A DNA stretch of 64,000 nucleotides from Amoebophrya sp. A120 (lineage: Eukaryota > Protista > Dinoflagellata), in assembly GCA_905178155.1 (NCBI GenBank), contig CAJINV010000007.1, forward strand, positions 154,663-218,662, written 5' to 3'. Position 1 is the first letter of the stretch. Every line of letters starts with the position of its first letter. The notes under the pieces are model-generated. The model searched no databases. It worked only from the letters and a program-made list of their open reading frames with translations, and had not been told where the DNA came from. The position numbers were made by a program, and so were the translations under genes. Of the stretch, positions 341 through 64,000 are shown piece after piece.

Positions 341-3300
341 TCATTTATTTCCATACTTCTTACCGGCACTCAGCCTCTCCTCCTTCTCGCGTAACTCGCG
401 GCGCGTGAGCTGCAGGGAATCCTGCTCGTTTTTCCACTTCGCATCAAACTGCTGCTCCAGGTCGCTTAACCGGTTTCTATATTGCAGTTCCATGTCCGAT
501 ATGCATTGCAAAAGTATCGCACTCGTATAAATGCATTACAAATTTTCTCAGCATTAGAAATGGAGTTTGTCACGCGGATCTGTTTCAAGAAAAATTAAAA
601 TATTTGTGATGCATGATTGCATTTAGATTTACGACGAGTGCGATACTTTTGCACAGGATATCCGACTTCAGCGTTTCCAACCGCTCCTGCTGCGACGCCT
701 ATCAAATGCAAATATGTCTGGGTCTGGAAACTTGTAATGCTCGGTTGGGAATAGTGAACGCTTTGTAATGCACAGCCAAGCATGAGAAATTTTTGCCCTG
801 CTTTGTGTTGCGCTCTCCGCATGAAAAGCTGCGTTTTTGCATGACAGGCAAAAGGCTCTCTTCTTGGACACGCATCACAAACACTTCAGTCATGCCAGAC
901 AAGCATGACAAACCTTGCATCCTTCCAGGAGACCCAGACATATTTGCACTTGATAACGCCTGGTTGTCGGCAACGTTTTGCTCTTTGTGCCGCAGGTCCG
1001 CCTCCCGTTGCTGCAGCTGCCGTTCGTGCGAAACCCGCTGCTGTTCGAAGGACTGTTGCAGCCGCTGCAGTTCGTCTTCCTTGTCGCGAATCTGTTGACT
1101 GAGCTGCAACTCCCTCTCGTTGCAGGTCCGCTCGAAACTTTCTTGCTTCGCGCGAAACATCTGCTCCTCGTTGTCCAACCGCTGCCGCAGGTCGTGTTCC
1201 CGTTTCCGAATCGCATCGTCGACTTCCAGCTGTTTCTGCTGCGTGAAAGATTGCTCAAACAGCCGCTTTTCCTGGGTCAAACCGTCTTCCAGCTGCTGCT
1301 TCTTGAGAAAGAAGTCCCGTTCGAGCTTCAGGTTCTTTTCCTGCAAATCGTGCACCTCGGAGGAAAAAGATCGCTCCTGCTCCTGATTCTTTCGCGCAAA
1401 TTCCTGCTCCAATACGCGTTTTTGACTCTCGAGTTGCCGCTGCTTCTGCTCGAACTCTATCTGCAATTCTTCCCCAATTTTTAGAAGCTCCTGTTCCCGG
1501 GAGTTTGCGTTCTTCTCCGACTGGGACAACCACTATGCATTGCAAAAGTATCGCAATCGTATAAATGCATTACAAATTTCCTCAGCATTAGTGTAATGCG
1601 GATTTACCTTGAAAACATAAACAAGATTTGTATATGCATGATTGCAATACGAGTATCAGATACTTTTGCACAGGATAGCCGCTCGGTGAGGACGAATTCC
1701 AGTTCCTTCTTGTCGTTTTCGTACTTCTGAACTAGCGTCTGCTTCTGGAGGTCAAAGTCCCGGCGTAATTCCAGTTCTTTGTCTTGCAGCTTCCGGGCCG
1801 TTTCGTTGTTCAGGTCCAGCAGCTGTTTGCGCTGCTGTTCGTGCAGTTCGAACTGGAATTTTTCGTCGAACTTGCTCCGTTCCCGCGTGACCACGTCGGA
1901 TTCTAGCCGGTGTTTTTCGCTTTCGAAATCCATGCGCTGCTGCTCCAGCTTGTCCAGGTAAAACTTCTCGGTGCGCAGCTTTTCTTGCTGACACCGGTCG
2001 TTCACCTCCAAGTCCAGCCGGTGCTTTTCGTTCCGCATCTTATCCGTGAACTCGCAGTCCAACCGGTACCGTTCGTCCTGCAACTGCAGCTCTAACCGGT
2101 GCTATCCAAGGAAAAAAGTGTTACAGTTACGCATGTGTTGGAATTTCAGCATCACAAATTTGCTCTGCATGACGAAGAAAACTTGTAATGCGCAGACCAT
2201 AAGGGAAAACACGAATGGAATGAGGCTGGCACGCGTTTCCTGCATGACAGAGGTTGTCTGTCTTGCTTGTCTTGCATGAGAGTGTGTAACAGTAAACACT
2301 TTTTTCTCACGATAGGTGCTTCTCCTGGGAGAGCCTCTGCTCGATCTCGGAATCGATTTTCATCTTTTCGACGCGGAGTTTCTCATATGACAGTGCACAA
2401 CTCCCACTACAACCCCTCATTTGTAATGCAAAATCCCAAATCCAGCTGCTGCCATGTAGCACCACTAGTTGCATGACAAATCCTGCAAGCTCAAACAGCA
2501 CCACACTCCCGTGCAAATTTGTCATACAAAGCCGGCACTGTTGCTGCTGCTTGTATTGCCGTTCATGCGTATACAAATGAGGGGGACGAGGAGGAGTTGT
2601 GCACTGTCATATCTCACTCAAGTCGTGCGCTGCGCGTTCTTTCTCACTCCTCACCTTCTGCTCGAAGTCGGATTCTAGGCTTAGCCTTTCCTGCCTCACT
2701 TTGTCGGCAAAGTCGATATAAAATGCAAAAATGTGTGGGTCAGGAATTGTCATGCACAATTTGCATGGCCCATAATGTCTGTGGTGCATTCCCTAGCATC
2801 ACAGATTTTGTCACGGCTTCCTGATCCTGATGCCCATGCTACAGGAGAAATGCCCAATTGGGGAGGAAATAGTAGATCTCTTTCGCGGCTCATGTAATAC
2901 AGATTTTACGTGTAATGCATAGGCAGCATCACAAGTTGCCATCTTCCAGACCCAGACATTTTTGCAATGCATAGTCGAGTTCCAGTTGCAATTTCATCTC
3001 CCGGGCGTGTTGTTCGGCGAGCAACGCGGCTCTTTTATGAATTGCAAAAGTACTCGTATTGCAATCATGCACGACAAATCTTTTTCTTGAGGTAAATCCG
3101 CATCACAGATTTTTCTCATGCTGAGGAAATCTGTAATGCATTTATGCGAGTACGATACTTGTTTTGCAGTTCATATCTTTCCTGCACTTGCAGTTCCAAG
3201 CGGTGCTTCTCCTGCGCGACGCGGCTCTCCACCTCGGACTCTAGTCTCGCCCTTTCCCATATGAGAGTGCACAACTCCCTCTTCCCGTCATTTGTGATGC

Positions 3301-6300
3301 AAAATCCCAAATCCAGTCAAACCCCTGTGACACTGTTTGCATGACAAATTTCGAAAGCCCAGACAGTACTACAATAGGCGCATAAATTTGTCATGCACAG
3401 GCTCCAGGGTTGCTGGCGTTTGTTTTGCTGTTCATGCAATACAAATGAGGGGGAGGGGGTGGAGTTGTGCACTGTCATATCCAACCGCAACTTTTCCGCC
3501 AAATCTTGTCCGTGTTTCTCTTTTTCGCTTCGCAATCGTTGCTCGAATTCCGCTTCTAGTTGCTGCTTCTCACTGCGGACCTTGTCCGAGAACTCGAGCT
3601 CCAAACTGTGCCGTACTTCCCGCACGTGCTGATCACTCTGGAGTTGCAGCTTCTGTCTTTCACTGTTCGCCGCTAATTCGAGCTGGCGCGTACAGTCGAG
3701 CTTCACTTTTTCGCACTCCTTCTCGAGGCTCGAGGATTGGCGGACCGCTTCCTCCTTCTCGTGGAGTAGTTTGTGGAGCTCCTTGTCCTTTTCCAGTCTC
3801 TGTTTGTGGAGGTTCTCGTTAAACAGCAATTCCATGCTATCGCGAAGAAAAATCCACCCACTCCCATATCGCAAAGGGACACTTCTGAAATAAATTAAAT
3901 TTGCAATGCTGATTTGTGGCCACAAATGGTCTCTGTATTGCAACAAGGCCAATCCAGAGACTCCGCCGCATTATGCAGGCAGTTTGTGATGCTATGGGCC
4001 CTACAGATTACACATTTGCCATGCTACGCGCCTACGTCAGAACCCTTCTACTAAGGCTTGGTATGGGCCTGGTGCCGTCCTCCACTGCAAGACAGACCTG
4101 ATTTGTGTACGCAAATCCAGCATGAGAGCCTTCCTTTTGATATGGGGAGGGGGGATTTTTCCTTTTGATACATGCGGTGCTTTTCCGCTTCGAAGGCGTT
4201 TTCCATGCGGATTTTCTCCGTCCGCAGCACCTGCTCGCCTTCGGATTGCTTCTGCTGCTCGATCATCTGCGTCTTTTCGAGCAATTCTCGCTGCAGCTGC
4301 TCTTTTACCAGCAAGTTCCGCTGGTTCATCTCTTCTTCGAGTTTCTGCTTTTCCAAGCGGATCCTGGTTTGGAAATCCAGTTCTAACCGATGCTGCTCGT
4401 CACGAACCCGCTGCTCGGAGGTTAGCTCCAACTTCTGCTTTTCTTGCGCCAAATTTTGCTCGAAGACTCGCCCTTGCTCCAGCTTGATCTCCTCCCGGAT
4501 GTCGTCAACCACCGCTTTCTCGACGAAAAGTGACTGGTGTTCCTGCTGCAGTTTGTACAGCTCCTTGTCGCGTTCCATCTTTTCGACATGCAGTTTCTCG
4601 TTGAACTGCAAGTTCAATTCGTGTTTCTCCACATTGAACGCATTTTCTAGCCGCATTTTTTCCGCGTGCAGCTGCTTCTCAAATTCCGCGTTTTTACTCT
4701 CGTTCAACTGCTGCAGTTTCTCGTTCTGCTCGGTCAGATACTTTCTTTCCAAAGAGGAAAATTTCGTTTCGAAGTCTTGCAATAAAATGCTCTTTTCACT
4801 GTCGAACTTGCTTTTTTCCGCTTCCAGGCAGTGCAGGTGCTCGGCTTCCTATCCAAGAAAAAAACACCATCACAGTCACATTTAGGAGGTTTTGCATCAG
4901 TAATTTTTCTCGCATGACAAATTTTTCTTGTATTGCAAAAACATAAGGGAAATCCCGTATAAATTTTGACTGTGATGCATTTTTGCGCATGACAAAAATT
5001 TCTGTATTGCAAAAACGTGCAATAGTGATTGTGATGCTCGTTTTTTCTTGAATACTTCCAGCTGCGCGATTTTCTGGTCGAAGGTTTCCCGCTCCTTGAT
5101 ACCCCGATCGACCTGCTGCTCTATCCCAGAGAAAAAAGCGGGCAGGGCATGTTTGTAATGCAAAAATAAATGCAGAGAAAAACTTGTCAATGTCATGGTT
5201 GGCCACATAGCATGCTGTTTCGGGTATGCAATACAGATTTTTCTGTGTCTTTATTTCTGCATTACAAATCTGTCCTGCCTGTCTTTTTCTGTGAGATAAG
5301 CTCCGTCCGCTGCAGAGAGTCCCGGACCATCTGCAGCTCGTTTTCGAATTGCAGTTTTAATTTATTCGCCTCTAGTTTCTCGGTATTCAGCGCCGCGTTC
5401 CGGTCGAAGAGTTGCTGCTCCGTTTGCCGGATTTTCGTTTGACAGTCATTTTTCACCTCCAGAAGCTCCTTTTCGTAGTCTTTCTGCCTTAAACGCAGCA
5501 ATTCCTCGAGGTCCTGCTGCTTCTTCTTCGCCTGTTGCTTTTCCTTCTGCACTTGCTGATGACATTCCTTCTCCAAGTCCGCTATTTTTTTCTCCGAATT
5601 TTGCTTCCACCGCTGCTTTTCCGCTTCCAGTATGCATTGCAAAAGTATCGCACTCGTAATATAAATGCATCACAGATTTCCTCAGCATGAGAAATAACAT
5701 TTGTAATGCGGATTTACCTTAATGTAATGCACGACTGCAATTACTACGAGTACGGTACTTTTGCACAGGATATCCAGCTGCTTGCTGTAACTCTCCTCGA
5801 TTTTCGCCTGGCGGTCGGCAAACTGCTTCTCTAGCTCTAGCCGTTGGTTCGACAACACGACCCGCTCGTTGCTCATCTCGCCACAGATGCTGCTGTGCTT
5901 TTGCTCGAACTGCTGCTGCATTTCGTGAAGCTTTTCCCGGTACTCTTGCTCCACTAACCGGTTTTTGTTTTGCACGAGGAGCTTCTCGGATTCCAGTTGC
6001 TGCTCCAGTTCTATCAATTGTTGCTTGCACAGTTTTATGAACTGCAAAAGCATCGACGTACTAGTGGCGATTGCAATACAAATTAGCTGTGCATGACAAA
6101 GAAAATTTGTCATGCTGATTGAGCTTGGAAAGGAGATTTGTCATGCATCATTGCAATTACGAGTACGAAGATATTTTGCAATGCATAAGTTTTTCGATTT
6201 TCAACTTTTCTTCGTAGAACTCATTTTCGAGATTTGTCTGTTTGTCGAGAAACTCCTGCTCTAATTGCCTTTTCAACTGGGTGAAGTTCCGCTTTTCAGT

Positions 6301-9300
6301 GTCCAGCAGCTGTTCCTGCCTCTGCACTTTCTCCTTGCACTCGTTCAAAATTTTCTTCTGCTCCGTCGCAGTTGATTCTTTCAGCTTCGAAAACTGGTTT
6401 TCTGCCTCGCGTTTCTGCTTCTCTAGTATGACCCGCTCAGATGTTACAATCTCAAACGTTACAATAGAATCTGGAAATCTGTCATGCAGGAGTGAATGAT
6501 TTAGCCAACTCTCATGGGGCGGCCACGCATGACAAGTTCCGGCGGAGTCCCAAACCGCACTACAATCTGGCGAAATTTGTATTGCAGAAAGTGGAACGGT
6601 CTGTGACTCTGTAATGCTCGCGATGCAAGACAAATCCCAGATAATTCTATTGTAACGTTTGAGATTGTAACACCTGAGCGGGTTATATCGAGATGCTCTA
6701 TTTTCCTTCTCGCTTCCTGCCGTTCTTTCTCCCAAATTCGCTGCTGTTCCTGTTCGAAAGAATCCTTCGAAGAATTTAATTTCCGCTTATGCATTGCAAA
6801 TATGTGTGGCTCTGGAGAATTCTGAGATCTGTCATGCTGTTTTTCCAAGCTCTCTCAAGTCTGCAATGCGGGGCCTAGCATCACAGGTTCTGCTGCCCCT
6901 TCGTGATGCCTATTCTGCATGAGAAATGCCCTCTCAGAATGACCAGAAGTGATTACCTATTGCCAGTCATGCAACACAGATCTCAGTCGTATGGTCCACA
7001 ACTCGCATCGCAAGTTCGGATCCTTCCAGACCCAGACATCTTTGCATTTGATACCGCTTCTCCTGCTGCAACTTCTGCGAAAAATCTTTTTCCAACTCCA
7101 GAACCTTCTCGTTGTACTGGTTTTCCAGCCGTTTCCTCTCCTCGGCAACAACTTTACTAGAATTTTGCTCCTTCTTATCCGCATTGTCCTTGACTTTTTT
7201 CTCGTAATCCAGCTTCAAGCTCCTTTGTTGCTCCTTGAACTCCAATTCCTTGGACTGAAAATCAATATCAAATGCAAAAGTGTCTGGGTCTGGAAACTTC
7301 TAATGCTAAAAGGGAATGATAGACGCACTGCATTAGGCAGCTACGCATGACAAGTTTTTTGGCTGCCGTGTCTTACGTATTCCGCATGGCAAACTGCATT
7401 TTTGCATGACAGGTAAGAGGGCCTTTTCGTGCCTATGCAACACAGATTCTCGAATCATGCCAGACAAGCATGACAAACTTGCACTCTTCCAGACCCAGAC
7501 ACGTTTGCATTTGATAATCAAACTCCAGCTGCGATTTCAATTCCCGGTACTCGTTTTTCAGTTTTTTTTTATGCATTGCAAAACTATCGTACTAGTACAA
7601 ACCAGCCATGCTCCGGCTGCCGCCGGAGCGCAGGGCTGTTGGGCCGGGGCAAGACTGTTTGCCGATCGGACCACAACGCCACGGGTCTAATATGCACAAC
7701 GAAACATACTGGAGTCCCGCTCCTTCCGCCTGTTTGCGCCGCGCCAACCCGCAGGACCACTTGCGCGCTTCCCGCGCCTGTGGGCGCTCTGCGCAGGGAG
7801 CAGCTGCAAAGAACACCGGGGGCGAACAGAAGCCGCCAGGCGCGAGAGGGTAGCGCGAGAGGGTGGCGCGGGAGGGTGGTGCGGGAGGGTGGCGCGAGAG
7901 GGTTGCGCGAGAGGGTGCGCGAGAGGGTGGCGCGAGAGGGTGGCGCGGAAAGGCGCCGAACAAAACAAGTCCACGACTGGCCTGCAGTGCCAAATATGGG
8001 GACTACCATGCGGATTCGCGCCCGCCACTTTGTGTTTTTACCCTCTCGCAGACCTCTCGCAGACCCTCTTTTTGACCTCTTTTGGGGGTCCCCGCTAATA
8101 ATCCGGCTATACTCGCGGGTAGAGGTCGACAGAGGTGGCCGAGAGGTGGCCAAGAGGGTCCGCGAGAGGTCGCCCCTTATTCGCGCCACCTCTCTCCACC
8201 TCTGTCGACCTCTCGCGCCCCCTCTTTTTGACCTCTCTGCACCCTCTGAGGCACTTAGGCGCCGCCTTAAGGTGGGGCCTTCGGCGGGCTATACTCGCGC
8301 ACCCTCTCGCCGACCCTCTCGAAAGGGGTCCCGCGCCACCTCTCCACCTCTGTCGACCTCTTTTTTACCTCTTTTGACCTCTTTTTGACCTCTCGGCCAC
8401 CTCTCGTTTACCCTCTGTCTACCTCTTTTTCCGCATGAATATAGTATATAGTAATAGCATGACAAATTTTTGCAAAAAGAAAAATGGAATTTGTAATGCT
8501 GATTGAGGTTAAATGGTAGATCTGTCATGCAAGACTGCCATTCATACGAGTACGATACTTTTGCACAGGATACTTTTCCGCTTGCTGCAAAACGGCGGTT
8601 TGCTCGTCAATTGATTGCTCCAGTTCCCGCTGTCGGTCCTGAAATCTTTTCTCGAGATTTTGCTCGAAGAGCACTTTTTCTTCCTCAATTTTCGCCTTTT
8701 CTTCCTTCATTTGTTGCCTCTCAGAATGAACTGACTTCTGCAAATTGTCCTCCTTCTCCGCAAACTTTTGCTCCATATCCCTCTTCTCCTGCTGCAAGGC
8801 CATCCGCTCGGTGGACAAGTCGGCGGAAAGCCTGTTCTTATCCAGTGCAAAAGTATCGCACTCGGACTATTTATTGCAGTTACGCATCACAAATCTAGTT
8901 CTAGGCGCCAAGGGCAATCCGCGTTACAAAATTCATTTCTCATGCTGCGAAAATTTGTAAATGCATTTGTACGAGTACGATACTTTTGCAATGCATAGTT
9001 CTGCTTGGACAGCAGTTCCGCTTCCAGTTCGGAAATTTTCGCCCGAAACTGCTGGTCCAACTCGCGCTCCTTCTTTCGCAGGGAATCCTGCTCCTGCAAG
9101 AGTTCTTCGTTGTAGAAGTGCTGCTTTTCCAGAGTGAGTTTTTGTTTGCTTTCCAGGAGTTCCTGGGAAAGCTTCTCGAATTTCGTCGTCTGCTGCTCCT
9201 CGTTATGGCGTTCTCAAACGTTACATTCTCAACTGTTACATGAACTTGTAATGCAAGAACGGCAAAAGTGAAAGGGCGAAGTTTGCGCCTTTTGCATTAC

Positions 9301-12300
9301 AAGTTCCGCACAGATTTAGGTGCTGTTTAGCCCCTCGCAGATTTGTCATGCGAAGCAGCTTGACCATCTGGCGGCTTAAGGTAGTTTTGCATGGCAAATC
9401 CATGTAACAGTTGAGAATGTAACGTTTGAGAATCCCATACTCGTGCTGGAGGATTTGGAGCTTCTGTTTTTCCAACACCTGTATCAAATGCAAGTATGTC
9501 TGGGTCCTCTGGAAGGATGCAAGGTTTGTCATGCACGTTTTACATGACTCCTGATGTCTGTGATGCATGCCCTAGCATCACAGATTCTGTGAGGGCTTCC
9601 CGTTCATGCCTATACCGCATGAGAAATGCCGTGTCGCCGTGGTAAAAACTGGCCCTCTTTTGCTGTTAATGCAATACAGATTTTCGTAGAATCCAAGTGC
9701 AGCATCACAAGTTGCATCTTTCCAGACAGCATCCAAGGCTATTTGCAGCGCATAACCTCTCGCAGTTGAAACACCTCCTGCTCCGCCTGCTGGAACTGCT
9801 GTTTCTGCTGCTCCAGAAAGCGCTGCTGCTGATGCAACGCGTTCTCTTCCTGGAGCTGCTGTTGCCGCTTCCCGGAGAAAGATTCTTCCTCGATGGAAAA
9901 CGCTTTCCGTTGCTTCTCCAGTAGCTGCTTTTCCGCGTCGAGCTCGGCTTTCAGCAATTCCAGTTCCGTCTGCTGCTTGAGCAGAATTTTCTCGCTGTCC
10001 TGTAGCTTTTTCACTGAACTTCTTTCCTTCTCACAGAGTTCCTTCTCAATCTGATCGCACCGGTCCTGCTTCTCCAGTAGCGAACTTTCCATCTGCTTCT
10101 TTTTCAGCTCGAAGTCTTGCATCAGTTCAAGAAATCCGTGCTCCGATTTCTGCAGCTCCAGTTCGGATTTCTGCAGCAGCTCCGACCGTAGTTCGAGTTC
10201 CTTCTGCTCAAAACTTGCTTTCAAATTCTGCTTCTCGAGGTCTAGCAGATGCGTTATCCTGAGCAAAAACGACCCCACCCCATAGTCAAGATGGGAAACC
10301 TGCTAAACAAATCAGCCAGCTTTGGTTGTTGTGCATGACAGGTTTCGCCTCGTAGTGCAATCCTGTTTAGCTTGTTCAGCGGCATCACAGATCTAGCCTA
10401 CTATGCTGATTGGAGCATTACAAATCCCAAAGAACGACTAGAAAATGCTTCTCATGGATCTCCGCATGAGAAACATTTTCAGCATGCAGATTTGCATTAC
10501 AACTCTGGTGTGGGGACGTTTCTACTCACGATATGCGTCTTGTCGTCGAGGTCTTGCTTCAATGCTTTCTCTTTCTGGGTAAACTCGAGAGTCATATGAA
10601 ATGCAAAAATGTCTGGGTCTGGAAACTTGTGATGCTAAAATGTGACTGGTGGGCGCACTGCAATACGCAACCAAGCATGACAAATTTTTGAGCTGCTCTT
10701 GTGTTTCGTTTTTCGCATGGCAAACTGCGTTTCTGCATGACAGACAAGAGGCCCTTTTCGTGCCTATGCAACACAGATTCTCGAGTCATACCAGACAAGC
10801 ATGACAAACTTCCAGACCCAGACACTTTTACAGTTGATAAGTCAAAACCTTCTCCAATTCCTCCAATTCTGCCAGCCGCTTCTTCTCGATCAGCTCCGCG
10901 TTCAATCTTATGCATTGCGAAAGTATCGCTCTCGCATGGCAATCATCGTTCGTTCGTTGTGGATCGGCTCTGCCGACCGGGTAACCCAACGCCTTGCATA
11001 TAAATGACCGACTTAGGCGAATCCCGTTGCGGGCATACAAATTGGCCGTACGGAAGGGCCCTAAGCGCTACATACATAGTTCACCCTAAGCGCCTACCAC
11101 TTCGGTCTGGGACCTCGTCTACCTGATCCTGGGGGTCCACAGCGCACTAGCCCTTTGCTAGCATAAACAGACTGGGTTCTAAAAACTGACTTAACTCCCT
11201 CCATCCTTACAACAGTAAGGCCATCATAAAGGTGCGCTAAAAAGGGTTCGGGGCGCTCCGTACGGAAGGGAGCCTTTCGACGCGGCGTACGCTCTCCTGT
11301 AGAGGTTTACGCGGAACACGGATGGGCCGCGCACGCAACTCAGTCGAGGAGGACACACGCTATCCTCAATAACAGAGGCGGTAGTCCCTCACGGCGGCTG
11401 GCCTGTCTGAAGACTGTAAGCCCCACCTCCCATCTTCCCGGTTCGTCAATGACTCGGGCGAGCCATGTTACTTAGACTCCCCGCACATGCAAATATGGGA
11501 CGGCTGGGGGGGTTTAAAAGGTGCTCGCGCCGTTCATGATCTACTATAAAAGAAAAAGTCTTACTTATACAAATGGCGGAGCTTATAACTACGAGCTGAT
11601 GGCCTCCTGTTTAATGCTTCATCTCCCTCCTTCCTCTTTTCTTCCTTCTTCAATTAAATTCGCCCCCCTCTTCACCTTTAACTCGCCTCTGTTTCAATTT
11701 AACTCGCCGCCATCTAACTCGCCTCCTTCCTTCTTCGCCATTAGTCGCCTCCTCTCCTGTCTCTTCCCCACTTTGACTCGCCCCTTTCCCGTCTAGCTAG
11801 CTGCTCCCGGCTCGCAGTTCAGAGTCTTCGCGCATTCAAGTCGAACGCCTGGCCCCGTTACCTGCGTAATTATTTTTTTTTATTTTTTTTTTTTTTTGGG
11901 TCTGGATCGTCTCCGGGCTTCTTTATCTGGATGGGCTCGATCTTCTTAGCCTCTTGTCTTTACCTGCTTAGTATATTTTTTGGGATCCTGTAAGTTCCTC
12001 ACCCTGCCTCGTGATCTGCCTGAGTGCTCCCGTGCTGATCTTAGTTGTATCAATTTCGTCGGCCGCTTAATGGTTCCACTAGCTGGACAGGTTTTGAAGG
12101 CTCTGAGAGCGATGGCGAGGCTTTGGGACGAACGCACCAATTCGCGCGAATCTTCTCGCCGGCTTCTCTTTTTTATTTTTTTTTTTTTTCTCTCCTGTTT
12201 CTGTTTCAGATTTAGAACTCTACTGCACTGGACTGCTGTACTTTTCAGCAGCCGGCAAAGTCTTGCAGTGATGTGTTTTTCAAACGGCCAACGAGGTGCA

Positions 12301-15300
12301 TTTCTCAAACTTGTAGAACATTCAGACGCGACTCCCGAGCTGACTTAGAGACTTTTCAGCTGTTTAACCGTAGAGATCCTGCGTCGCTTGTAGTCGTCCT
12401 CCCGCTCTCCCTCCTGCGCCCATCTGCAAGGGTTCGCTGATAATCCGCTGCATCGTTTGCGCCAGCGTCTCCTCCTCTTCGGCTGCTTCTTGTTTATTAT
12501 CTCCGTGCTGTTTGCTTTTCTGCCTTTTCCTTTGCGTTGTATCTTCTCCTTCTGCTTCTCTCTTTTTGGACTCTGTTCTTTCTCCTTCGGCGCTTTTTCT
12601 TCTCCTCACGTTTTCACTGTTGCTCGCTCTTCCTCTTTGTCCTGCAGCGCTACTTGCTCTCTGGTCTTGCGATGCCCCGGCTTCCTTTGAGTATTTTTTA
12701 TGCCCTCCCTTTGAAAATTCTAATGAGTACGGCGCTTTTGAGGTTAGGGGGTCTACTTCCGCCCGCACTGGCTCGGCCAACTCCTTTGCTTCTGTCTTTT
12801 GCTTTGTGCTTTTCGCTTCCGCTTGTTTTGATTTTCGTTGAGTCGCCGGCTTCTCATTTCCTCCCGTGACTTTAGCTTCTTTCCCTGCGCTGCTCCGCGT
12901 TATTCCTATACTTATGCCTTTACTTTCTAGCGACGCCCTGGCTTTTGGCTGGACGGCCGAGAACCTGCTGCGTTGCGCGCTGCCTTCGTGCCTACTTTTT
13001 TTCGTTTCTTTTTTCCCTCTTCCTTCTTCGCTCTCTTTCCGTTCCCCCCATTTTTCCTCTTTTGTTGTCGTCCCCTGTTTCGCTGGGCCGTCTCCCTCTG
13101 CGGTCACTTTCTGCCTCGTTTTTTTCTCCTTCCACTCCCCTACGCCTCCTTGTGCCCTTTGCGCCCCTACCTTATCGACTCCTCTTGCTTCTTCTTTGTC
13201 TTCTTGGCCCGTTCCATCTACCTCCTCCCCTTCCCAATTGTAGTCCCGCAGCTCTCCAGGTAGTATCTTCTTCTCTTTTCTTTCTACTATCGAGAGCGAT
13301 AGCGACTGCAATGCTGTCCCCTTTTCTGTGTCTCTTATACTATTTTCCCTCGTGTCATTTCTATTTTGCGCATCCTCCTCTTCCTCCTTAATCATTCTTG
13401 CAGCGTTCTCCAGCAGCTTCCCCATTAGGTCCTCGTCTGCTTGCTTCACCTTTTTCCGCTCTACTAGATGCGCTTCTTCCTCACTTTCCTGCTCGTCTTG
13501 CCACTCTTTCAATATTCCTCTAATGTCGCTATTCTCCTTAATATCTTCGGGCTCTTCTATCTTTTTGAGTTCTTCGGGGCATAGTGCTCCTATTATGAAG
13601 TCCTGCCGCTCAGTCCTTGTCATCTCTGGCCAAGCTTCTACGTCTGGCAGCCCTAGCGCCCCTTCTCCGAAATCATATATCGGCCAGATTAGTGACCCTC
13701 TGTCCATCTCCGACACATCAATGGCTCGCAGGGTCTTGCTTGTCACTATCTCTACTCCTTCTCCCACCCTCCTCTCTTCTTCTTTTACTTCGAGGCCCCC
13801 CTTATCGATGCATATCCCCACTGTACCACTGTGGCCCTGGAACCGCAAACGCCTCTGCGCTTCTTCTTTCTCTATCTTGTGCTTCTTCTCTACTCTTTCC
13901 TCATTTTGCTGATGTAGTTCTTCAATCTTTTCTGTCAACTCTAAACAAATCCCGTGCTCTGCCCGCAGTTGCCCCGCTGTGGCGCTCCGTAGCACATCGT
14001 AGTCCACTAGCTTCACCGCTATCCCTTCTGCTTCTTCTTTTTGCAAATCTTCCAGGATGCGCAGCGAGTTGCTCACATAGGCCAGGAATCTTTGCTCCTG
14101 CTCCCTCTCTTCTGTTTCGAGATGCTTCTGCTCTGTCTTATATATTCTCTTCTCCCACGATGCTCTTCCCGTCGTTCTTCCTGATACTATTCTTCTGCGG
14201 GTCACTACTGTCAGCCCTAACTCGTCTGCTGCAATCACTTTCACCAACTCTCCATCCTTCGGCCATGAATTCTCATACGTTCTAGAGTTGTCCTGTACTA
14301 TCCCTGTCGCCCTCAGATCTGACACTGCTGGCATCCTTATGCTCGTCCCTTTTCCCATTGCTTCCAGTAACGCTATATCTGCCACGTTTCTCTTTTCCAT
14401 CATCTCTTTGATTCCCTTCGTTATACCTTGCTCCCCTTCTCCTAAAATTCGCACTGGTAACGTTGCCCACTTCATAAATAGGCCGATGTCCGTGAGCATG
14501 TTCTTCTGCGCTAGTGATCGCAGTGTTTTTATACCCATTAAGAATGGATCAACTGCGGATAGAACATTATACGAGTACACTACCCGATAGAGCGTCTCCG
14601 GCGTTGTTTTTGTAATCTTCATTATTTTCTGCAGTGTCTTCTCTGTGAAGCCTATTGCTTCTGCTATTACTACTGCCAGCTCCCCCATCAACTCTGCCCA
14701 ATCTTTGTCCGTGAAGAACATCTGCATAACCGGGAGGAAGTAGATCATCGCCGACGTAAAGAACACCTGTATTACCCACTTCAGTTCCTCGCCGTTAATC
14801 TTCTTCCTTGCTTTCATCACCTGCAGCGATAGGCGCTGCCCTATGCCGATGCTCTGCTTTACCTGTCCCTTTATTAACTTTCTCCGCTGCTCCGCTCCCA
14901 GCGTTGTTATTGTTGTCCCGAGTATTTTTATCGTCTTTCTTTCATTGAATCTGATCCCGAACGGTCTAAATGCTTTCCGCACTTCTTTCCTCCTCTTTTC
15001 CTCTCTATCTGACGACGTGAGCTCGCACTTCTGGGGTGCCAGGAATTGCCCCTCACGAGTGTACGTTATTTCGTACGCTATCGCTATTTCTTCCAAAATT
15101 TTCAATACTTTGCCGTGATCTTCTTCGTGGTATGTAAGTGCTAGCGCGCCATCATCAACGAACTGCACCGCTAGCGTTTGCGGCTGCTTCTTTTTTCCTT
15201 CTGCCGTGTTCTGCTCTCCTACCCATTCATATTTTTGCTTGTTCTTCCTTTTCCTTTTTAGTACTCTCCTCCTTCTCCTTCCTGTCCTGGGGGGCTGTTC

Positions 15301-18300
15301 TGTTTTGTAGATCTCATCCGTCTCATTTTCTACCACGTACGGCGGAAATGATGTGTCCGTCTCCGTTTCTTTTCTTGTGCCGAAGTTGTCCTTAATTTTT
15401 TCCCTTAGGTTTGTCCTTGCTGCTTGGAGCTCTTTGTCTCCCTTCACTCTCCCCGTTTCATCAAATACCTCCTCCAAATATTCCTGCACCGCCTCCACCC
15501 CTGGCATGAAAACCAATGTGCCCGCTAGCATGCACTCTACTGATCCCTGGATTAGGTCGTGATGGTTCTTTGCTTTTGCATACGTGTGCCCATTGCGTAG
15601 CCAAACTTCCTTATTCCAGTTTATTGCTGCGACGAGTTTCAGGTAGCACGGGCGCACTCCGCTGCGCCTGTACGCCCGCAACGCTGTGCAAAGCGTCAAA
15701 CTATTATAGAAGTTCGACGCATCCAGCCCAATTATTACGCTAATCCACTTCCTGGCTTCTTCTTCTTCCCTCCTCTTCTCTTCTTCTTCCTCGCCTTTTC
15801 TTCTTTTTGCCTCCTCCTCCTGTTCTGTGTCCGGCGCTGTTATCGGCGAAGTACCTCCCTCGCCTTCCTCTTCCGGTGCTTCTCCTTTCTCTTGAATTTC
15901 TTCGCCCATCCAGTTCTCTCCTGCCTTTTCCAGTTTGCTTAGTAGATCGCCTGGCTCCCCGTCTTCTTTCTCCGCACTATCCATGGTTTTTTGTATTTCT
16001 TCGCTGTGCAAGGTTTCCAATAACTGCACCACTGTTGCCTGACATGAGGCGCCTGGCTTTGATGCTGCGCCACATCTCGCGAAACCATTGCTCTTATCGC
16101 TTATCCTGACCATTTGGCACGTTAGGTAGCTCATCAGAAATCTCGCCACCGCCGTCCCCTGAATTACTGTTCTGATCTTCTCGCAGGCTGTTGACGCCGC
16201 TGTCTGTTTCTTCAACATTTCAACTTTCACCGCAGTCAAACTCTTATCCAGAAACTTCTCTACGTCTCTCGGGGTCGTCGGGGACTCTGCTAGCTCTTCC
16301 AGGAATTTGCTGCACACCTGCGCCAGTATCCTTAACTGCTCGCCGCTTAATGTCTTGTATGCTTGGAATCTAATTCCATCCATTCCTGCTGCTTGTGCGT
16401 TTAGTCTCTTGATGTGCTTCTTGAGCTGGGTCGCTGTGACTCTGAGCGGCGCCACCTTCTTGCATGCTTCCGTCAGCGATTGATATGCATCCCGGAGTGT
16501 GCTCCCACTAAATGCGTGGCTCTTCCCATTCTCTTCCATTATCGCTCCTACCTTTGAAATGTGGTTCCCAGCTAGCTCTCTGGTGCAGTTTTCTGCTCCC
16601 GATACTTGTCGACCCGCTACCGTCATTTCCGATATTTCTCCTTCCACCGGCTTTCCTCTTCCTTTTCCAAGTGCCATCTCCTTGGCTCTTCTGGCGTAGT
16701 CGTGGATGCTCTCTGGTTTGTCTTTTGTTTCTTCTAGCATACAACTATGCGCCTCCATCCACTCTTTCGCTAGTTTCTTTTCTTCTTCACTCCGCGCTTC
16801 TTCTTTCTTTTCTTCATCTCCTTGGTGGGCCTTCCGACCTTTTCCCTTCCTTTCTTTCCCTGCGTCTTCCGGCTCCTCACTATTTTTTCCCTCCCCTTTT
16901 CTAACGCTATGGCCCTGGGCTTTCCCCTTCCCTTTCTTTTCTCTCTCTCTTATCCTTCTTCTTCTTATTGTCTCTGCCAGTTTCGGCACTGGCTTCTTTT
17001 TTTCTTTTATCATTCCCGTTTCCTTCATTGTGCTCGTCACCCACTTGCGGTAGCTTCTTATGTCCTTTATTTCTTCTGCGTTGATCGCGCTCGCTTCCAT
17101 TTTCTCTTGAAGCTCTTCCGTCTTAATTGATCCCCTGGGCCAGCGCACTGTCTCTTCGAAAGGGTTCTCCTCTTCAAGTCTGTTTTTTCCCTTTATTATC
17201 TCGATGCTTCTTCGCATAAATTCCGGCGAAGGCTGCATCAGTGCGTACTTCGCGTTGAAGTGTAGTTCTTGCGGATCTTGTTCTGTTGCTCTGTACGTTG
17301 TCGCCACTTCCTCTTCCGCCTCCTGCTCCGTCCACATTATTGTAGCCATTAGCGCTAAATGATCCGCCTCATCGTACGGATTCATCCCCTCCTCAAACTC
17401 CAACACTCTTCGCACGGTCGGGTCTTTTGGTATCTGCACCCTCTGGATTTGCTTCGTGATTATCCTCGATCTGATTGGCGCCACTGCTAGGAAGTCTATC
17501 TTGGATGGGTTCCGCGCACTCCTGTAGCACGTCGGCCCCCCTGGTTCCATCGTCAGCGCTACCTCATTTACGTAATTCTGCAGCGGTAGATGCGCCTCCT
17601 CTTAGACTACTACGCTTATCGGGGTGTTGTTCTTGTCCTTCCGCAGTTTCATCTTTTCTTCTTTCGTTACCTCATATTCACAGTTTAGGTCTCCCGTTAT
17701 TATTCCGATCTTAGCCCTTCCCATCATTTCCCTTATTTTCGCCAGCAGCTTCGCCATCTGTCCCCTTATAAATTTTCTCGCCGCTTCAGTGTCTTCTACC
17801 TTCGACTCCCTTCGGTATAGTGATACCACTAGCCTACCTGCTTCATTTATCGCCCCTGTTGCCCACATTAGCATCGCCTCTTTCTTGCCAATGTCCCGGG
17901 TGAGGTGCTCCCCTTCCTGCTCTTGTGCTAGGACTACTATACTCATCCTGTACTCCGGCATCCTCAGCGGTTTCTCCACTTCCAGTATTGCTGTCCCTCC
18001 TGATCTTAATTCTACTGCTATTCTTCGCAGGTCCGTCGCTATTGCCATGTAGATCCTTCGCCCTTTTAGTTTCATTTTTTGGTAGAGCCATGCCAATGCG
18101 TCCTTTACGTGCTCGAAAACTGCAACTTTTGCCGGTACTGCTGCCATTTTTGTTTCTGATATTGATGCTTCTGACGCTTCCAGTGCTGATATTGCTACCG
18201 CCAGCCTTATCGCGTTCGCCCTTCCTACTCCGTTTACGTTCCAATATAGGTGCTTTATAAGCTTCAGGCCGTCTACATCCACGTCACACGCTGCGCCTTC

Positions 18301-21300
18301 TTCCTCAGGTGGCAGGAATTCTATTATGTTCCCGCACTTTTCTTCTACATCTTTGGCAGCTCCTCGCTTATTCTCTTCGCTTCTTCTTTCTTCTAACTTT
18401 TCTAGCCACCGCGGGTCTTTAAACTTCTTTGGTTTTCGGACCCCTTCACCCTCCCCGCTAATCTCCTCCGCCATTCTTCTACTTTTTTTACTTGTGCTGC
18501 TCCTCGAATTCTTCTGTCTGTCTTTGTCTTCTCTCTGGCCTGCCTGGTCTTCTCTTCTCTGCAATTTCGGCTGTGCTGGAATGCTTTCTTTGAGCATGCA
18601 GCAGACGAGGAGCAACGCCCTTCGCATATTTTTCTTCCTCTACCTATGCTATTTTCTGATATCCTGACTCTGATTTTTCTGCTTCCTATTTAATATCCTA
18701 ACCGCTCCGCCTATTTTGCTAGATTTTAAGGGTTCCTATCTGTTTCGGGACTGGTCAAAAAGATTTAGACTAATGCAGAGAAATTCCTACGCGTAACGAT
18801 CTGTATGGATCTAGATATATTCGCAACGGCCGGGAGTACCTCGATCTGCAGTCCTTTCGCTCTCGTTGCGGAGCACGCGACTCTTTCCGAGTCCCTGGCA
18901 TCGACTTCGTCCTCGTCAGTTTTTCTTTTCTATGATTTTCGTGGTTAATTACGCAACTCATGCAGTTTCTCGGGTCTTATCATCCAATTGCTCTCGCTCC
19001 TTCTTCTTTCGTGCCCTCCAATTTGCCATTTTCTCGCGCCCTATTCTCTTTCTTTCCTCTTCTTCCTCCTTTGTCTCGATCTTCCGCATCTCTTCCTTCT
19101 TTCTTCTTCTATTCTCATTGGCCGTTTCTCTGTACTTCATTTCCTTCTTCTCTCTTTCAGTCTTCTCTTCTTCTGACATTTCCGCGAGAGACTCCTTTCT
19201 TTTCTGCTGCGCCCTTGCTGCTTGTTCTTCCTGCACTTTCCTATCGTGCTCCAGTCTTTGGTCATACGACACTAGATAGAGCGCCCCCGCTGACCATGAC
19301 TTTGTCTCTGCTAGCGCCATCGCCTTCCCTTGCCATTCTTCATAGGCCTCCCTCGACTGCATCGCCTTTTTGTGTTCTGTGTGCCCGTCATTCTGCTCCC
19401 TCCGTTCTTCTTTCTTTGCTTTCGGTATTTCTAGCCCTTTTTCTTTGCGCTTTTTCGCCCATCTCCTTCTATAGTCTCCTATATGTATCTTCCACTGCTT
19501 CCTCCCCATCGGCGGTAGTTTCACTATTCCCTTTTCTCTTTTCCCTAATCTGACTGGGCAACTTTCAAACTCTCTATTTGTCTCTTCCGTCTCTGTCGCT
19601 TTCTTTCTGTTCAGGCGAATCATCAGGGCAGTCGTGCGCACTCTCAATTTCGTCGCCCTCTTCCTCCTCTCCTCCCATGTCAGGCCCTTCCCGCCCTCGT
19701 CTTGTAGTGGTATTCTCTTCAGCCATTTTGAGTCCTTCTCCTCTGCTATTGCTGTTGCACCCCTTGGCTTTGTTGCTATCTTTTTGCTGCGTTTGCTTTT
19801 CTTAATTTTCTTCGCTTTGATCAGCGACCTCAGCTCCATCGTTGGGTCTGCCTTGAATAAAATTCGCGGCGGATTCTTGATCCTCTCTCGCAGCATCTGG
19901 CCCACTGTCTTTCTTGTTTTTCCTTCGTTCATTTCCTTGCCTTTCCCCTTTCCTTTCCCTCCTTCTTTATCTTGTCGCGCACGCTCCGCATCCTCGTCCT
20001 TACTCTCCCCGGCTGTTGCCGATTTCCTCCATCTTGTCAGCTCCTCTATGTTGCCATGTTTTCCTTTTCCTTCTCCCATTTTTCCTACTAAGGGCCTACT
20101 TCGTATTTTCATAAAGCTGACGACCCCGGTGGGTCTATGTCTACACTACTAATCTCATCGCTACTGACTCTCTCTATGTACGCCCTTTGCTTGCGTCGTG
20201 CTCGCTCTTCTTTTCTGCATTCAGTTACTTTCTTCATATAAAAAGGGCCGTCTGGCTTCCTTCTGCGTTCTATTTAATTCTGTCTCTGTCTAGCGCTATG
20301 GTATTCTAGCGGTCGTAGCTCTTTGGCTACTCCCTTTCTTTTTTTTCTTTCGACTTGCTCGAAGTAGTCCCTTAGATTGAGAAAAAAAAAAAACAACATC
20401 CATCATCCGCTTCTTTCACTCCTCCCATTCGTATTCCTCCTCTTTCATCCCCTTCGCCCCGCCCTTGCCCATGTCGCCGGTCTTCGCCCCTTTGACTCCT
20501 GCCATTCCGACCCCTTGTGGGTAACTTGGTCCTCCCCACATCTGCTCCTTTCCAATGAAGTGGCACTGGCCCCCGTCTGGCTGGTACCCCGACGCCTTTC
20601 CCGCTAATCCAAAAACTCCCTTATCCATTTGCGACGCCTTCGAGGAGGATGAAGAGGAGCCCACCCCCGCACTATACTGCGGAGCGGGTCCATAGAGATA
20701 CGGCAGCCCTTTCTCCCATCCTGTTTGTTGCCATTGCTGAAAATTTTGCGCGTACTGCTGCTCCATCATACTCATCTGCTGCCATTGTTGAAATTCGCGC
20801 CATTGCTGCTCTTTTTCCGCTTCTTCCCTCATCCAATCCTGTTCGTACTTTCCTTCCCCGTTTGGCATCCGTCCTCCAACTTTCTTCCTTCCTTCGTGGC
20901 CCCGTCTCTCTTCTTCGCTTTCTTCTTCTTCACTTTCTTCTTTGGTGTAGTCGAAATCCGCCACTTCTCTTTTGAATCTCTTCGCCTCTTTTTCTTGCTT
21001 TTCCATCTCTTCGCTTTGTTCCTCAGCTTCCTCACCCTTTTCCGTCTCTTTTCCGCTTCCCCTTGGCCTTTTCTTAATCTTGTCTCCTTTCGCGCTATGT
21101 GCCTTGCACTTGTCTCCGTGCACTCCCTGTCCCATTCCTTTTCCGTTAATGTACTGCACCGGGTTCCCACCCACTCCCATATCTTTTAGTCCCTTCATCC
21201 TTTCTTGGTAGCCAAATACGTTTCCCCCTTTCTTCTCTAACCAGGATTGCTCCGCAGCCCAACCCTGCGTCATTGGCGGTTCCCAGCCTTGCATCTGGTA

Positions 21301-41650: not shown

Positions 41651-41666
41651 TGATCAATCGGTGTCT

Positions 41667-50880: not shown

Positions 50881-51096
50881 CTGATATTTTTCCTCTGCAA
50901 TACGAAATAAGCTCGCCTTGTTCTTCTAGTTGTACATGGAAATAGAAACTTTTGACGCGCATCGACGGACAAGGACGACGCATCGATCTTTTAATTTAGG
51001 AGAATGATCTTCTAGGCCAAAAATTATGCAGGAGATTTTCAGCCTCATCAACCCTTGAGAGACAGGACGTAGCACAAGATATACCATGCACCGCTA

Positions 51097-62548: not shown

Positions 62549-64000
62549 TTATAGTCGCACTGGACTAGCAGTGTAAGTAGATCGCCCACCTGCCGCTTGA
62601 CTACGTGCTGCCGGAGAAGTGCTAGCAAAAGTCGCACTTCTACTTGTCCCCGTCAAGCTCTCCCGCTCGGAACTGGTCCCCTATGCCTTGCAAATATGCC
62701 TGGGTGGTCTGGAAACTTGTATTAATGCAAGTCAGTGAATACTAAGCACTCTGTAATGCACCGCCAAGCATGACAGGTTTTTTCGTCGCGTTGTGTTGCG
62801 CATTCCGCATGTATGACAGGCAGAGGGCACTGTTCGTGGCCACGCAACACAAAGTCCAGATTCCTGCCAGGCAAGCATGACAGATCTCGCAGTCTTCCAG
62901 ACCCAGACATCTTTGCATTTGATATCCCCGCGCCAGTCGCAAAATTGCTCTCGGAGTTCACTGTCCGAATTGTGCTCGCGCGATCTGAAGCAACACGCTC
63001 GACCTGTTGACCTCGGTCGTGCTGTGTTGACCGCGAAGGGTTCGGCGGTGCATCTTGTGTTCGATCTTCGTGTTGCGGCTGCACTGGGTTGTTGCTGCTA
63101 TTCGAAGATCGACTACGGGGGTTGGAGGATCTGGATCGGGTGTCCGGATTAGAGAAGCTGCAGCTCCGCGTATTTGTATTGTTCGACGCCGTCGGGATTC
63201 CGGTCGTGGCGGTCGCGCCGGTGGAAGAAGTTGGAGTGCGCCCGGAACTTCTTGAGCTAGTCCGGGGCTTCTCGCGGTGGTGGTGGTTTAGATGATAGGC
63301 CTTGGTCGCGCCCTCGCTAGAACCACACATCTCCTCGTCTTCCAGCAGTAGCACTGTTCTCGATAACTCCTCCTGGTCTTCCAAAAACAAACTCTCCTCA
63401 ACCAGCACTGAGCTCGGCTCCGGTGGGAGATCGGAGAGAATATCCGAGGCGGTTTATCCTGTATAAAAACGTCGTCCCCACCCGAGAGTTGTAATGCAAA
63501 TCTGCATGCTATAAAATGTTTCCATCGCGGAGACCCATGAGAAGCATTTTCTAGTTGTGTTTTGGGATTTCGACTTGTGATGCTCGGATCAGCATGATAT
63601 GTTCGATCTGTAATGCGGCTGCACTAGCTCAAGACTACTACACTGCGAGCCACAATTTGACGTCATGCCCAAAAGCAAAGCCTGTTGATTTGTGCACCAG
63701 CAGAGTTTGCATCTTCACTAACGGGCGGGGACGTTTTTCCTCAGGATACGGCTCCCGTCGCTTCCGTGACTGATTCGTCGTTACAATCCGCACCGCGCCG
63801 CCTCCGCACGGCCTGTAGCAGCTGCGGGTGCACAAGCCGCCGCAACTTTTTCCACACAGGATTCCGGACAAGGTTGCGCCGGCGCTGGACGTCCCTGCGC
63901 GCGTCCTCCGCATCTTCCAAGGCTGGCCGCGGTGGACAAAGCCTCTGCGCTATGAGAGTGCACAACCCCCCCTCCCCCTCATTTGTGTTGCATGAACAGC
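62549..64000 (-). CDS. 3' part of a hypothetical S/T/R-rich protein; 5' end beyond the window
   Basis: Joins TEATGA|ASDILSD..VLVEE and GAG|TSSERES..PVRL* after removing 63455-63748 and 62682-62924. Confidence 0.7.
62682..62924. mobile_element. Introner, family A
   Basis: DR TCCCC/TCCCC. Confidence 0.9.
63455..63748. mobile_element. Introner, family H
   Basis: DR CGGTT/CGGCT. Confidence 0.88.
63951..64000. mobile_element. Introner, family D, cut by the window edge
   Basis: Begins TATGAGAGTGCACAACCCCCC like other D copies. Confidence 0.8.

What the first reader, a model, noticed from the sequence alone, without database searches (positions are those of the whole stretch)
500..64000. One 8-nt motif (TGTVATGC / GCATBACA) is repeated in both orientations in otherwise unrelated introner families
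Seen: GCATGACAA, GCATCACAA, GCATTACAA, GCAATACA and their complements recur several times per element (about nine near-matches in 700-955, four in 500-660). They occur in families A-H, whose TIRs and interiors do not otherwise align, and by eye they are rare in exons, the retrotransposon and the arrays. Inference: a shared cis code, such as a transposase subterminal site, a binding site for an RNA-binding splicing factor, or complementary pairs that zip the intron into a rod. This would explain how different families use one machinery.
Basis: partly seen in the sequence, partly recalled or inferred. Interest (0 to 1): 0.78.

Follow-up and report, generated by a model that had tools for sequence, protein, structure and literature searches.

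The report
Shared, evenly spaced motif in introners
Many different families of small jumping elements that become introns in this marine protist genome all carry the same 12-base motif, usually in pairs 31-33 bases apart, which likely serves as the landing site for the still unknown protein that moves them around the genome rather than as a signal for cutting them out of the RNA.

Summary
173 of 179 exact hits lie in 62 TAT...ATA elements, about 100-fold above the rest of the window. The elements have 5-bp target duplications, are skipped exactly in RNA-type contigs, and match the published Amoebophrya A120 introners.

The motif is really about 12 bp (RYYTSTVWTGCD). In 446 elements (window plus a related assembly) it occurs in all 19 multi-copy families. 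It is as conserved as the terminal repeats, and 18 of 19 families carry head-to-tail pairs 31-33 bp apart with largely unrelated spacers.

The RNA readings fail. Opposite sites do not covary, one family has all strong sites in one orientation and is spliced either way round, and a 2-kb element without an exact motif is still spliced. In older copies the motif decays at about half the spacer rate.

Best reading (0.6): subterminal binding sites on double-stranded DNA for one shared mobiliser. No such protein was found. The families are probably distant kin, not unrelated. I found no description of the motif or its spacing in the papers searched.

The parts
500..660 (.). Family A introner (about 150 bp, near-palindromic, sites < < > >). 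Other A copies: 1534-1677, 3036-3175, 5631-5772, 6036-6187, 8839-8997, 26854-27007, 28827-28975, 29402-29590, 31637-31785, 32397-32546, 35403-35568, 42616-42764, 58592-58772, 60460-60579
   Evidence: TAT...ATA ends and 5-bp duplication; alignment; site maps; 1534-1677 skipped in contigs of X1 and X4
700..955 (.). Family B introner (about 255 bp, terminal repeat TATCAAATGCAAA..TGTCTGGGTCTGG). 12-bp sites start at 730>, 761>, 779<, 801>, 818<, 838<, 871<, 902< (direct spacings 31, 33, 31). Other B copies: 2717-2973, 6788-7053, 7266-7516, 9482-9754, 10595-10839, 24313-24572, 25023-25287, 25493-25745, 25787-25980, 26166-26436, 26521-26773, 27151-27413, 29996-30260, 31831-32097, 39177-39440, 41787-42100, 42284-42551, 46873-47124, 59628-59884, 60044-60330, 60757-61027, 61211-61474, 62682-62924
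   Evidence: several skipped exactly as element plus 5 nt
2103..2314 (.). C-type introners (ends TATC..AAAAAA). Also 4850-5054, 5122-5298, 30340-30548, 59371-59583
2386..2611 (.). Family D introner (ends TATGACAGTGCACAAC; alternating sites about 48 bp apart). Also 3260-3479, 47420-47645, and a copy cut by the window end at 63951-64000
3838..4170 (.). Family E introner (about 325 bp; three 32-33-bp site pairs). Also 57836-58157
   Evidence: skipped in contigs of X1 and X4
24620..24917 (.). Family F introner: six sites, all head-to-tail, starting at 24655, 24686, 24737, 24770, 24822, 24853 (spacings 31, 51, 33, 52, 31). Other F copies: 10255-10533 (opposite orientation), 29033-29321, 29634-29928, 58225-58519, 59010-59337, 63455-63748
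   Evidence: 10255-10533, 24620-24917 and 29033-29321 skipped exactly
6427..6687 (.). G-type introners (long terminal repeats; alternating sites 47-49 bp apart). Also 9204-9439
7570..8572 (.). Family A introner with an 850-bp motif-free element inserted between its terminal repeat and first site. Second case 30619-31527
   Evidence: exon resumes at 8574 on the same contig
10909..21738 (.). Family A introner split by a 10.7-kb retroelement-like insert between its terminal repeat and first site. Sites start at 21631<, 21662<, 21677>, 21695>
   Evidence: skipped as 10,835 nt = element plus 5 in contigs of X1 and X4; sites
21863..23864 (.). Decayed TAT...ATA element holding a 133-bp tandem array. 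No exact motif (best matrix score 9.3, inside the array) and no target duplication left, yet removed exactly
   Evidence: joint 21858 to 23866 in X1 and X4

Best explanation
The 12-bp motif is a selected, fixed-spacing internal repeat shared by all multi-copy TAT...ATA introner families examined, and it most likely acts as a subterminal binding site on double-stranded DNA for the one, still unidentified, protein machine that mobilises them.

Inferred mechanism: subunits of a transposase/integrase (or an obligatory host cofactor) would bind the sites in pairs about three helical turns apart, starting 30, 40 or 51 bp inside each end. They would bring the two TAT ends together and insert the element with a 5-bp staggered cut. 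Lineages that lose sites would stop spreading, while an inserted copy can let them decay. Splicing would rely on the ends, not on this motif.

Shown: enrichment, conservation, spacing, strand independence, lack of covariation, decay in old copies, exact removal from RNA-type contigs. Inferred: DNA binding, the kind of protein, the transposition role.
For: (1) Every multi-copy family has it (19 of 19), and 440 of 446 elements called without using the motif have 2 or more strong sites.

(2) Column agreement is 0.894 for the motif, 0.897 for the terminal repeat and 0.776 for spacers in 11 families. G at +6 is kept in 1610 of 1632 cells. At +3, C changes to G 73, to A 54 and to T only 19 times.

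(3) Head-to-tail pairs at 31-33 bp occur in 18 of 19 family consensuses; the best 3-bp window in 3000 randomisations reached mean 7.3, max 14. With one family per terminal-repeat group: 7.65 of 8 vs 3.9, P=0.0003. Spacers are only 0.40 identical across families vs 0.36 shuffled. Opposite sites also keep set offsets: 17-18 and 49-51 convergent, 15 and 33 divergent.

(4) Outermost inward-reading sites sit at 29-32, 38-44 or 51-53 bp from the end (29 ends, R=0.73 at 10.4 bp; P about 0.04 at group level).

(5) Core changes run at 0.12 times the spacer rate on internal branches and 0.34 times on terminal branches. In 123 copies with worn target duplications vs 382 with perfect ones, core divergence rises by 0.0225 (CI 0.009-0.037), 0.49 times the spacer rise; among young copies the ratio is 0.15.

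(6) Splicing is indifferent to strand, to end-to-site distance (850-bp and 10.7-kb inserts) and, in one case, to absence of the motif.

[quoted passage not shown] Precedents: hAT subterminal repeats (PMC10368747) and helically phased IS1535 end motifs (PMC6188088).
Against: No mobiliser was found. No element over 1.1 kb was called in the fetched loci, the long ones examined are ordinary introners with nested inserts or other copies, and 5 ORFs picked by integrase-like patterns out of 127 had no transposase Pfam hit. Farhat et al. report no transposase in A120 and reject general transposase mobilisation (PMC7789003 section 16).

The old-copy ratio of 0.49 has CI 0.21-0.94, so some constraint after insertion may remain (it could also come from older subfamilies lying further from the consensus). 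An earlier, smaller version of the test was inconclusive (core +0.008, SE 0.006). Excess change on terminal branches is expected under any purifying selection.

Helical periodicity beyond the 31-33 pair is weak (mean cosine 0.14), and 18- and 39-bp direct spacings are off phase. Sites fill the whole element, not only its ends. Families are partly related, so some spacing may be inherited. Only one motif-free spliced element was seen.
Confidence: 0.6

Rival explanations
1. Dual use: the motif is bound on DNA by a host chromatin or transcription-coupled protein that both licenses transposition and marks the element for removal during transcription, standing in for the missing U1 snRNA.
For: Strand independence and fixed spacing fit DNA binding. 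The core decays more slowly than spacers in old copies (ratio 0.49, upper CI 0.94). U1 was not detected and no transposase was found in A120 (PMC7789003).
Against: The element at 21863-23864 is removed exactly with no exact motif. Inserts of 850 bp and 10.7 kb between end and first site do not disturb the junction. The core does decay in old copies.
Confidence: 0.17
2. The motif is a binding site in the pre-mRNA for a splicing factor; most elements carry both orientations so that one reads correctly whichever way they land.
For: The motif is almost confined to spliced elements. Most families carry both orientations. Residual constraint in old copies is not excluded.
Against: Family F has strong sites in one orientation only and is spliced both ways round (10255-10533 vs 24620-24917). 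One spliced element lacks the motif. A rigid 31-33-nt spacing with unrelated spacers is hard to explain on flexible RNA (inference).
Confidence: 0.08
3. The motif is only a relic of common ancestry: all families descend from one element built of roughly 32-bp units and nothing reads the motif now.
For: Shared end signature. 8 of 171 masked interiors align, and spacers show a faint common consensus with a weak inverted half-site at +17.
Against: The core changes at 0.12 times the spacer rate on internal branches. Substitutions avoid the bases that the motif avoids at other sites. Orientation and order of sites differ among families while the spacing holds.
Confidence: 0.07
4. Opposite copies pair in the RNA and zip the intron into a rod that brings its ends together.
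For: Interiors fold more stably than mononucleotide shuffles (mean z -2.7 to -5.3 outside family F), and 78 of 263 sites are predicted to pair in register with an opposite site.
Against: No covariation: mean excess matches -0.07 over 48 opposite pairs, 1 with z>2, against 7 of 59 among same-strand pairs that cannot pair. Family F: 0 of 35 sites paired, interior z -1.2, still spliced. Pairing would not need one particular sequence in all families.
Confidence: 0.05

Closest known systems
Introner elements of Amoebophrya sp. A120 (Farhat et al. 2021, PMC7789003; Gozashti et al. 2025, PMC12130899)
   Same: Inverted repeats starting TAT, seven variable bases, then As; short direct repeats (5 bp here); non-canonical junctions; lengths of 110-330 bp; tens of copies in one gene; many families.
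   Different: The passages, sections and supplement text that I read describe only terminal and direct repeats. No internal motif shared across families and no fixed spacing is mentioned. Figures S19-S25 are images and were not visible.
Subterminal repeats of hAT transposons (Hermes AAGT, Ac, Tol2; PMC10368747)
   Same: Short repeats inside the ends, in both orientations, asymmetric between the two ends, bound on duplex DNA by the mobiliser.
   Different: Here the site is 12 bp and keeps a fixed 31-33-bp spacing, whereas hAT repeats are described as variably spaced (PMC6188088). The duplication is 5 bp, not the 8 bp recalled for hAT. No BED transposase was found.
Helically phased end motifs of IS607-family transposons (IS1535; PMC6188088)
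   Same: Directly repeated motifs set back 20-60 bp from the end at helical-turn spacing, nucleating end pairing.
   Different: IS607 elements are bacterial, lack terminal inverted repeats and target duplications, use a serine recombinase, and space motifs about one turn apart rather than three.
Ginger2/Tdd integrase-type DNA transposons (Bao et al. 2010, PMC2836005)
   Same: Terminal inverted repeats; 5-bp duplication as in TDD-4 and TDD-5; A120 fam38 was filed near Ginger with TA/TA termini.
   Different: Ginger termini follow TGTNR, these start TAT; no integrase ORF was seen in any element here.
Nonconventional introns of Euglena (PMC12501133, abstract only)
   Same: Non-GT-AG introns defined by paired ends set a few bases from the cut sites.
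   Different: The Euglena code is at the ends and strand-specific; the motif here is internal, repeated and apparently dispensable for removal.

Membership tests
Amoebophrya A120-type introner elements | Inverted repeat starts TAT, seven less conserved bases, then As | tested here: met
   End profile of 892 ends (TAT was required by the caller): position 4 C/G in 855, positions 11-13 A in 785/813/836
Amoebophrya A120-type introner elements | Direct repeat of 3-5 nt at the borders | tested here: met
   5 bp; 38 of 54 perfect; mean match 0.93 vs 0.21-0.33 at other lengths
Amoebophrya A120-type introner elements | Removed from mRNA at non-canonical junctions | tested here: met
   15 of 15 displayed joints equal element plus 5 nt (13 checked, 2 by hand; 2 more joints not shown). 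Runs X1 and X4 are RNA by guess, one study; run X5 is continuous across element borders
Amoebophrya A120-type introner elements | Host is Amoebophrya sp. A120 | tested here: inconclusive
   No tool named the organism; a dynamin-family ORF gave only eukaryotic-type hits at 49% identity or less over most of its length. Assignment rests on the matching end signature
MITE (non-autonomous TIR DNA transposon) | Terminal inverted repeats, constant target duplication, no coding capacity, many copies | tested here: met
   summed depth over elements in X5 is far above unique sequence (not a copy number)
MITE (non-autonomous TIR DNA transposon) | Autonomous partner with the same ends and a transposase | tested here: inconclusive
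   None in the window or 167 fetched loci; no whole genome was available
Ginger (Ginger1, Ginger2/Tdd) | TGTNR termini | tested here: not met
   Termini are TAT; definition from PMC2836005 passages
Ginger (Ginger1, Ginger2/Tdd) | Integrase-like DDE transposase with H2C2 finger | not testable with these tools
   No coding element on hand
hAT subterminal-repeat system | Short repeats inside both ends, in both orientations | tested here: met
hAT subterminal-repeat system | 8-bp target duplication (recalled) | tested here: not met
   0 of 54 perfect at 8 bp
hAT subterminal-repeat system | Repeats bound by the element's own transposase | not testable with these tools
   Needs the protein and a binding assay
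RNA splicing signal (branch point or enhancer type) | Strand-specific and present in every spliced intron of the class | tested here: not met
   Family F is spliced in both orientations; 21863-23864 is spliced without an exact motif
Conserved RNA secondary structure | Compensatory covariation between paired sites | tested here: not met
   48 opposite-site pairs, mean excess -0.07

The most novel reading that the evidence does not exclude
One host DNA-binding protein reads paired 12-bp sites three helical turns apart in every introner family, both to mobilise them in a genome where no transposase was found and to mark them on the DNA for removal from the nascent RNA, replacing U1-based intron recognition.
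Probability: 0.15. Interest if true: 0.92.

Novelty: new variant of a known kind. Interest (0 to 1): 0.64.

Why it matters
Amoebophrya A120 is reported to carry about 30,000 repeated introns in 1954 families, with no recognised transposase and no U1 snRNA. How they move and how they are removed are both left open in PMC7789003.

A single 12-bp site with fixed geometry across families implies that far fewer machines move them than the family count suggests. It gives a precise bait for finding the mobiliser and a signature for recognising its autonomous partner. It also separates the two problems: the internal code looks like a mobilisation signal, while removal from RNA appears to depend on the ends.

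Tried and rejected
No whole genome was held, and the JACKZZ01 loci could not be searched as a genome, so a genome-wide transposase search was not possible.

Viral collection: two terminal-repeat patterns gave 0 hits. A motif-pair pattern gave 108 loci; the six richest were tandem or short-period repeats, and I saw no tie to these elements.

Long elements: L126:1535-2347 and L140:632-1465, near the 808-bp size of published fam38, proved to be ordinary introners with unrelated inserts. Five of 127 long ORFs picked by recalled integrase-like patterns had no transposase Pfam hit; the other 122 were not scanned.

Sequencing runs: no holder was on record as RNA. Raw-read run X8 laid only 4 reads and was uninformative.

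In-silico splicing of the first gene gave a 1661-codon frame plus shorter ones because some coordinates were then off by a base or more; I relied on the contig joints instead.

A general 10.4-bp lattice is not claimed: with the 31-33 pairs removed the signal is weak. Left-right covariation in terminal-repeat positions 11-28 (z 4-5 in four families) was not used, because the elements were called on that complementarity. The first old-versus-young test (58 vs 326 copies) was underpowered. A protein search did not name the organism. Earlier-findings look-ups gave nothing on this genome or motif.
Full report
WHAT THE WINDOW IS. The window holds minus-strand genes interrupted by 62 short elements that begin TAT and end ATA, plus one decayed 2-kb element. 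They are flanked by a 5-bp target duplication: 38 of 54 curated copies are perfect, and the mean match is 0.93 at 5 bp against 0.21-0.33 at other lengths. Contigs of runs X1 and X4 (RNA by the tool's guess, one study) skip them exactly. All 15 displayed joints equal element plus 5 nt (13 checked, two by hand), while contigs of run X5 run across element borders. The end signature matches that published for Amoebophrya sp. A120 introners: TAT, seven variable bases, then As (PMC7789003, passages). No tool named the organism, so that assignment is by signature.

THE OBSERVATION. There are 179 exact hits: 173 in the elements (12.4/kb) and 6 elsewhere (0.12/kb). There are none in the retroelement, the arrays or the nested 850-bp element, and every family A-G exceeds all 200 dinucleotide shuffles. 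The motif extends to about 12 bp, RYYTSTVWTGCD, and T is excluded at the variable position (2 vs 47/85/47).

A LARGER SAMPLE. A metagenome-collection scan with the family B end pattern returned 167 loci, all on JACKZZ01 contigs, carrying the same families at up to 95% identity. Whether this is the same strain was not determined, and family B is over-represented by design. Calling elements from ends and duplication alone, without the motif, gave 446 elements in 19 multi-copy families. All 19 carry the motif, and 440 of 446 elements have at least two strong sites. In 21 long loci, 682 exact hits fall in 63.9 kb of element sequence and 56 in the other 262 kb, some clustered like uncalled elements.

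Head-to-tail pairs 31-33 bp apart occur in 18 of 19 family consensuses. The best 3-bp window in 3000 randomisations reached 7.3 on average and 14 at most. Drawing one family from each of 8 terminal-repeat groups gave 7.65 of 8 against 3.9 (P=0.0003). The 19-21-bp spacers are 0.40 identical across families against 0.36 shuffled. Opposite sites prefer 17-18 or 49-51 bp (convergent) and 15 or 33 bp (divergent). The outermost inward-reading site starts 29-32, 38-44 or 51-53 bp from the end (29 ends; R=0.73 at 10.4 bp; P about 0.04 at group level). Beyond the 31-33 pair, helical periodicity is weak, so I claim a fixed pair and a suggestive end phase, not a full lattice.

SELECTION. In 11 families with 7 or more copies (the largest cut to 70 of 134 copies in this test), column agreement is 0.894 for the motif, 0.897 for the terminal repeats and 0.776 for spacers. 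G at +6 is kept in 1610 of 1632 cells, and C at +3 goes to G or A far more often than to T. On trees of all copies, core positions change at 0.12 times the spacer rate on internal branches and 0.34 times on terminal branches. Using wear of the target duplication as an age proxy (505 copies; 123 worn, 382 perfect; 24 of 529 dropped for badly broken ends or duplications), core divergence rises by 0.0225 (CI 0.009-0.037) and spacer divergence by 0.046 (CI 0.022-0.074). The ratio is 0.49 (CI 0.21-0.94), against 0.15 among young copies. So the motif is strongly held in lineages that spread and is much less held after insertion. Some remaining constraint is not excluded.

RNA READINGS TESTED. Zipper: 78 of 263 sites are predicted to pair in register, as inverted repeats will, but 48 opposite-site pairs show no covariation (mean excess -0.07; 1 with z>2, against 7 of 59 same-strand pairs). 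Family F has six strong sites in one orientation, none predicted to pair, and is spliced. Splicing factor: F copies in opposite orientations (10255-10533 and 24620-24917) are both removed, as are B copies in both orientations. Family A elements with 850 bp or 10.7 kb inserted between end and first site are removed. The element at 21863-23864 has no exact motif and no duplication left, and is removed exactly in both runs.

ARE THE FAMILIES UNRELATED? Mostly in their interiors, not at root. With ends removed and sites masked, 8 of 171 consensus pairs align at z>4, and spacers show a faint common pattern. All ends share TAT-S-N6-AA. Distant common descent is likely, but descent alone does not explain the rate contrast or the constant spacing under changed site order.

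MECHANISM. Best reading (0.6): subterminal binding sites on duplex DNA for one shared mobiliser, bound in pairs about three turns apart and helping to pair the TAT ends before a 5-bp staggered insertion. The binding, the protein and the role are inferred. I found no autonomous element, and Farhat et al. found no transposase in A120 (section 16). Gozashti et al. describe an A120 family with terminal repeats and Copia/Gypsy-like ORFs (passages), listed as 5-bp TSD with TA/TA termini (supplement row). It is a candidate, but I could not see its sequence. Rivals: dual use by a host DNA-binding protein (0.17), RNA splicing factor (0.08), relic only (0.07), RNA zipper (0.05).

COMPARISON AND NOVELTY. 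It works like hAT subterminal repeats (PMC10368747, passages) and the phased end motifs of IS1535 (PMC6188088, passages). It is not hAT (no 8-bp duplication, a recalled criterion) and not Ginger by termini (PMC2836005, passages). The introners themselves are known. The shared internal motif and its spacing were not found in: Farhat 2021 (passages covering sections 10-11, sections 12 and 16 whole, term searches, supplement text); Gozashti 2025 (passages, supplement searches); two reviews (passages); and library searches. Supplementary figures of Farhat 2021 are images that I could not see, and Roy et al. 2023 was seen only as a reference; either could bear on novelty.

VERDICT. A real and selected feature, a new variant of a known kind of transposon end architecture, in a system whose mobiliser is an open question. 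Interest 0.64.

Noticed in passing
window 21858-23866, 29027-29322, 10903-21739, 1529-1679: Where the two duplication copies differ, the contig joints place the cut asymmetrically with respect to transcription: the intron takes 1-2 nt before TAT at its 5' end and 3-4 nt after ATA at its 3' end. The 3-4 bound rests on one joint.
   Followed up: partly
window 10946-21628: A 10.7-kb retroelement-like insert (long minus-strand ORFs with reverse-transcriptase-like and endonuclease-like motifs by recall; no Pfam hit) sits inside a family A introner and is removed with it as one 10,835-nt intron, so introners can shelter other elements. A relative of its end lies in L110:5877-6534.
   Followed up: partly
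window 7598-8455, 30741-31499, 40800-41645; L131:776-1572: An 850-bp GC-rich, motif-free element with 13-bp and 11-bp tandem units. It is inserted just inside an introner end in three of four cases (two family A, one of another family) and free in one, which suggests a target preference near introner ends.
   Followed up: partly
window 22022-23671: A 133-bp tandem array (12.4 copies) with internal inverted AATTCCTGACG/CGTCAGGAATT units lies inside the decayed element 21863-23864 and is spliced out with it.
   Followed up: partly
window 43683-45476 and 53762-57105: Further tandem arrays of 321 bp (5.6 copies) and 201 bp (16.6 copies), free of the motif.
   Followed up: no
window, families A and B ends: The same end variants at positions 4-10 (for example the TATGCATTGC type) occur on both family A and family B copies and are often not matched between the two ends of one copy, which hints at exchange of ends between families.
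   Followed up: no
window about 344-29000, minus strand: A very long coiled-coil-like gene carried on one 11,935-nt contig of run X1 holds about 40 introners; no canonical intron was noticed in it.
   Followed up: partly
window 37165-39660, minus strand: Dynamin-family gene (Pfam Dynamin_N) with one family B introner at 39177-39440.
   Followed up: partly
L051:1501-1660 and L057:1385-1545: Viral-collection contigs with dense TGTAATGC repeats at alternating 11- and 13-bp spacing; no link to the introners was seen.
   Followed up: no
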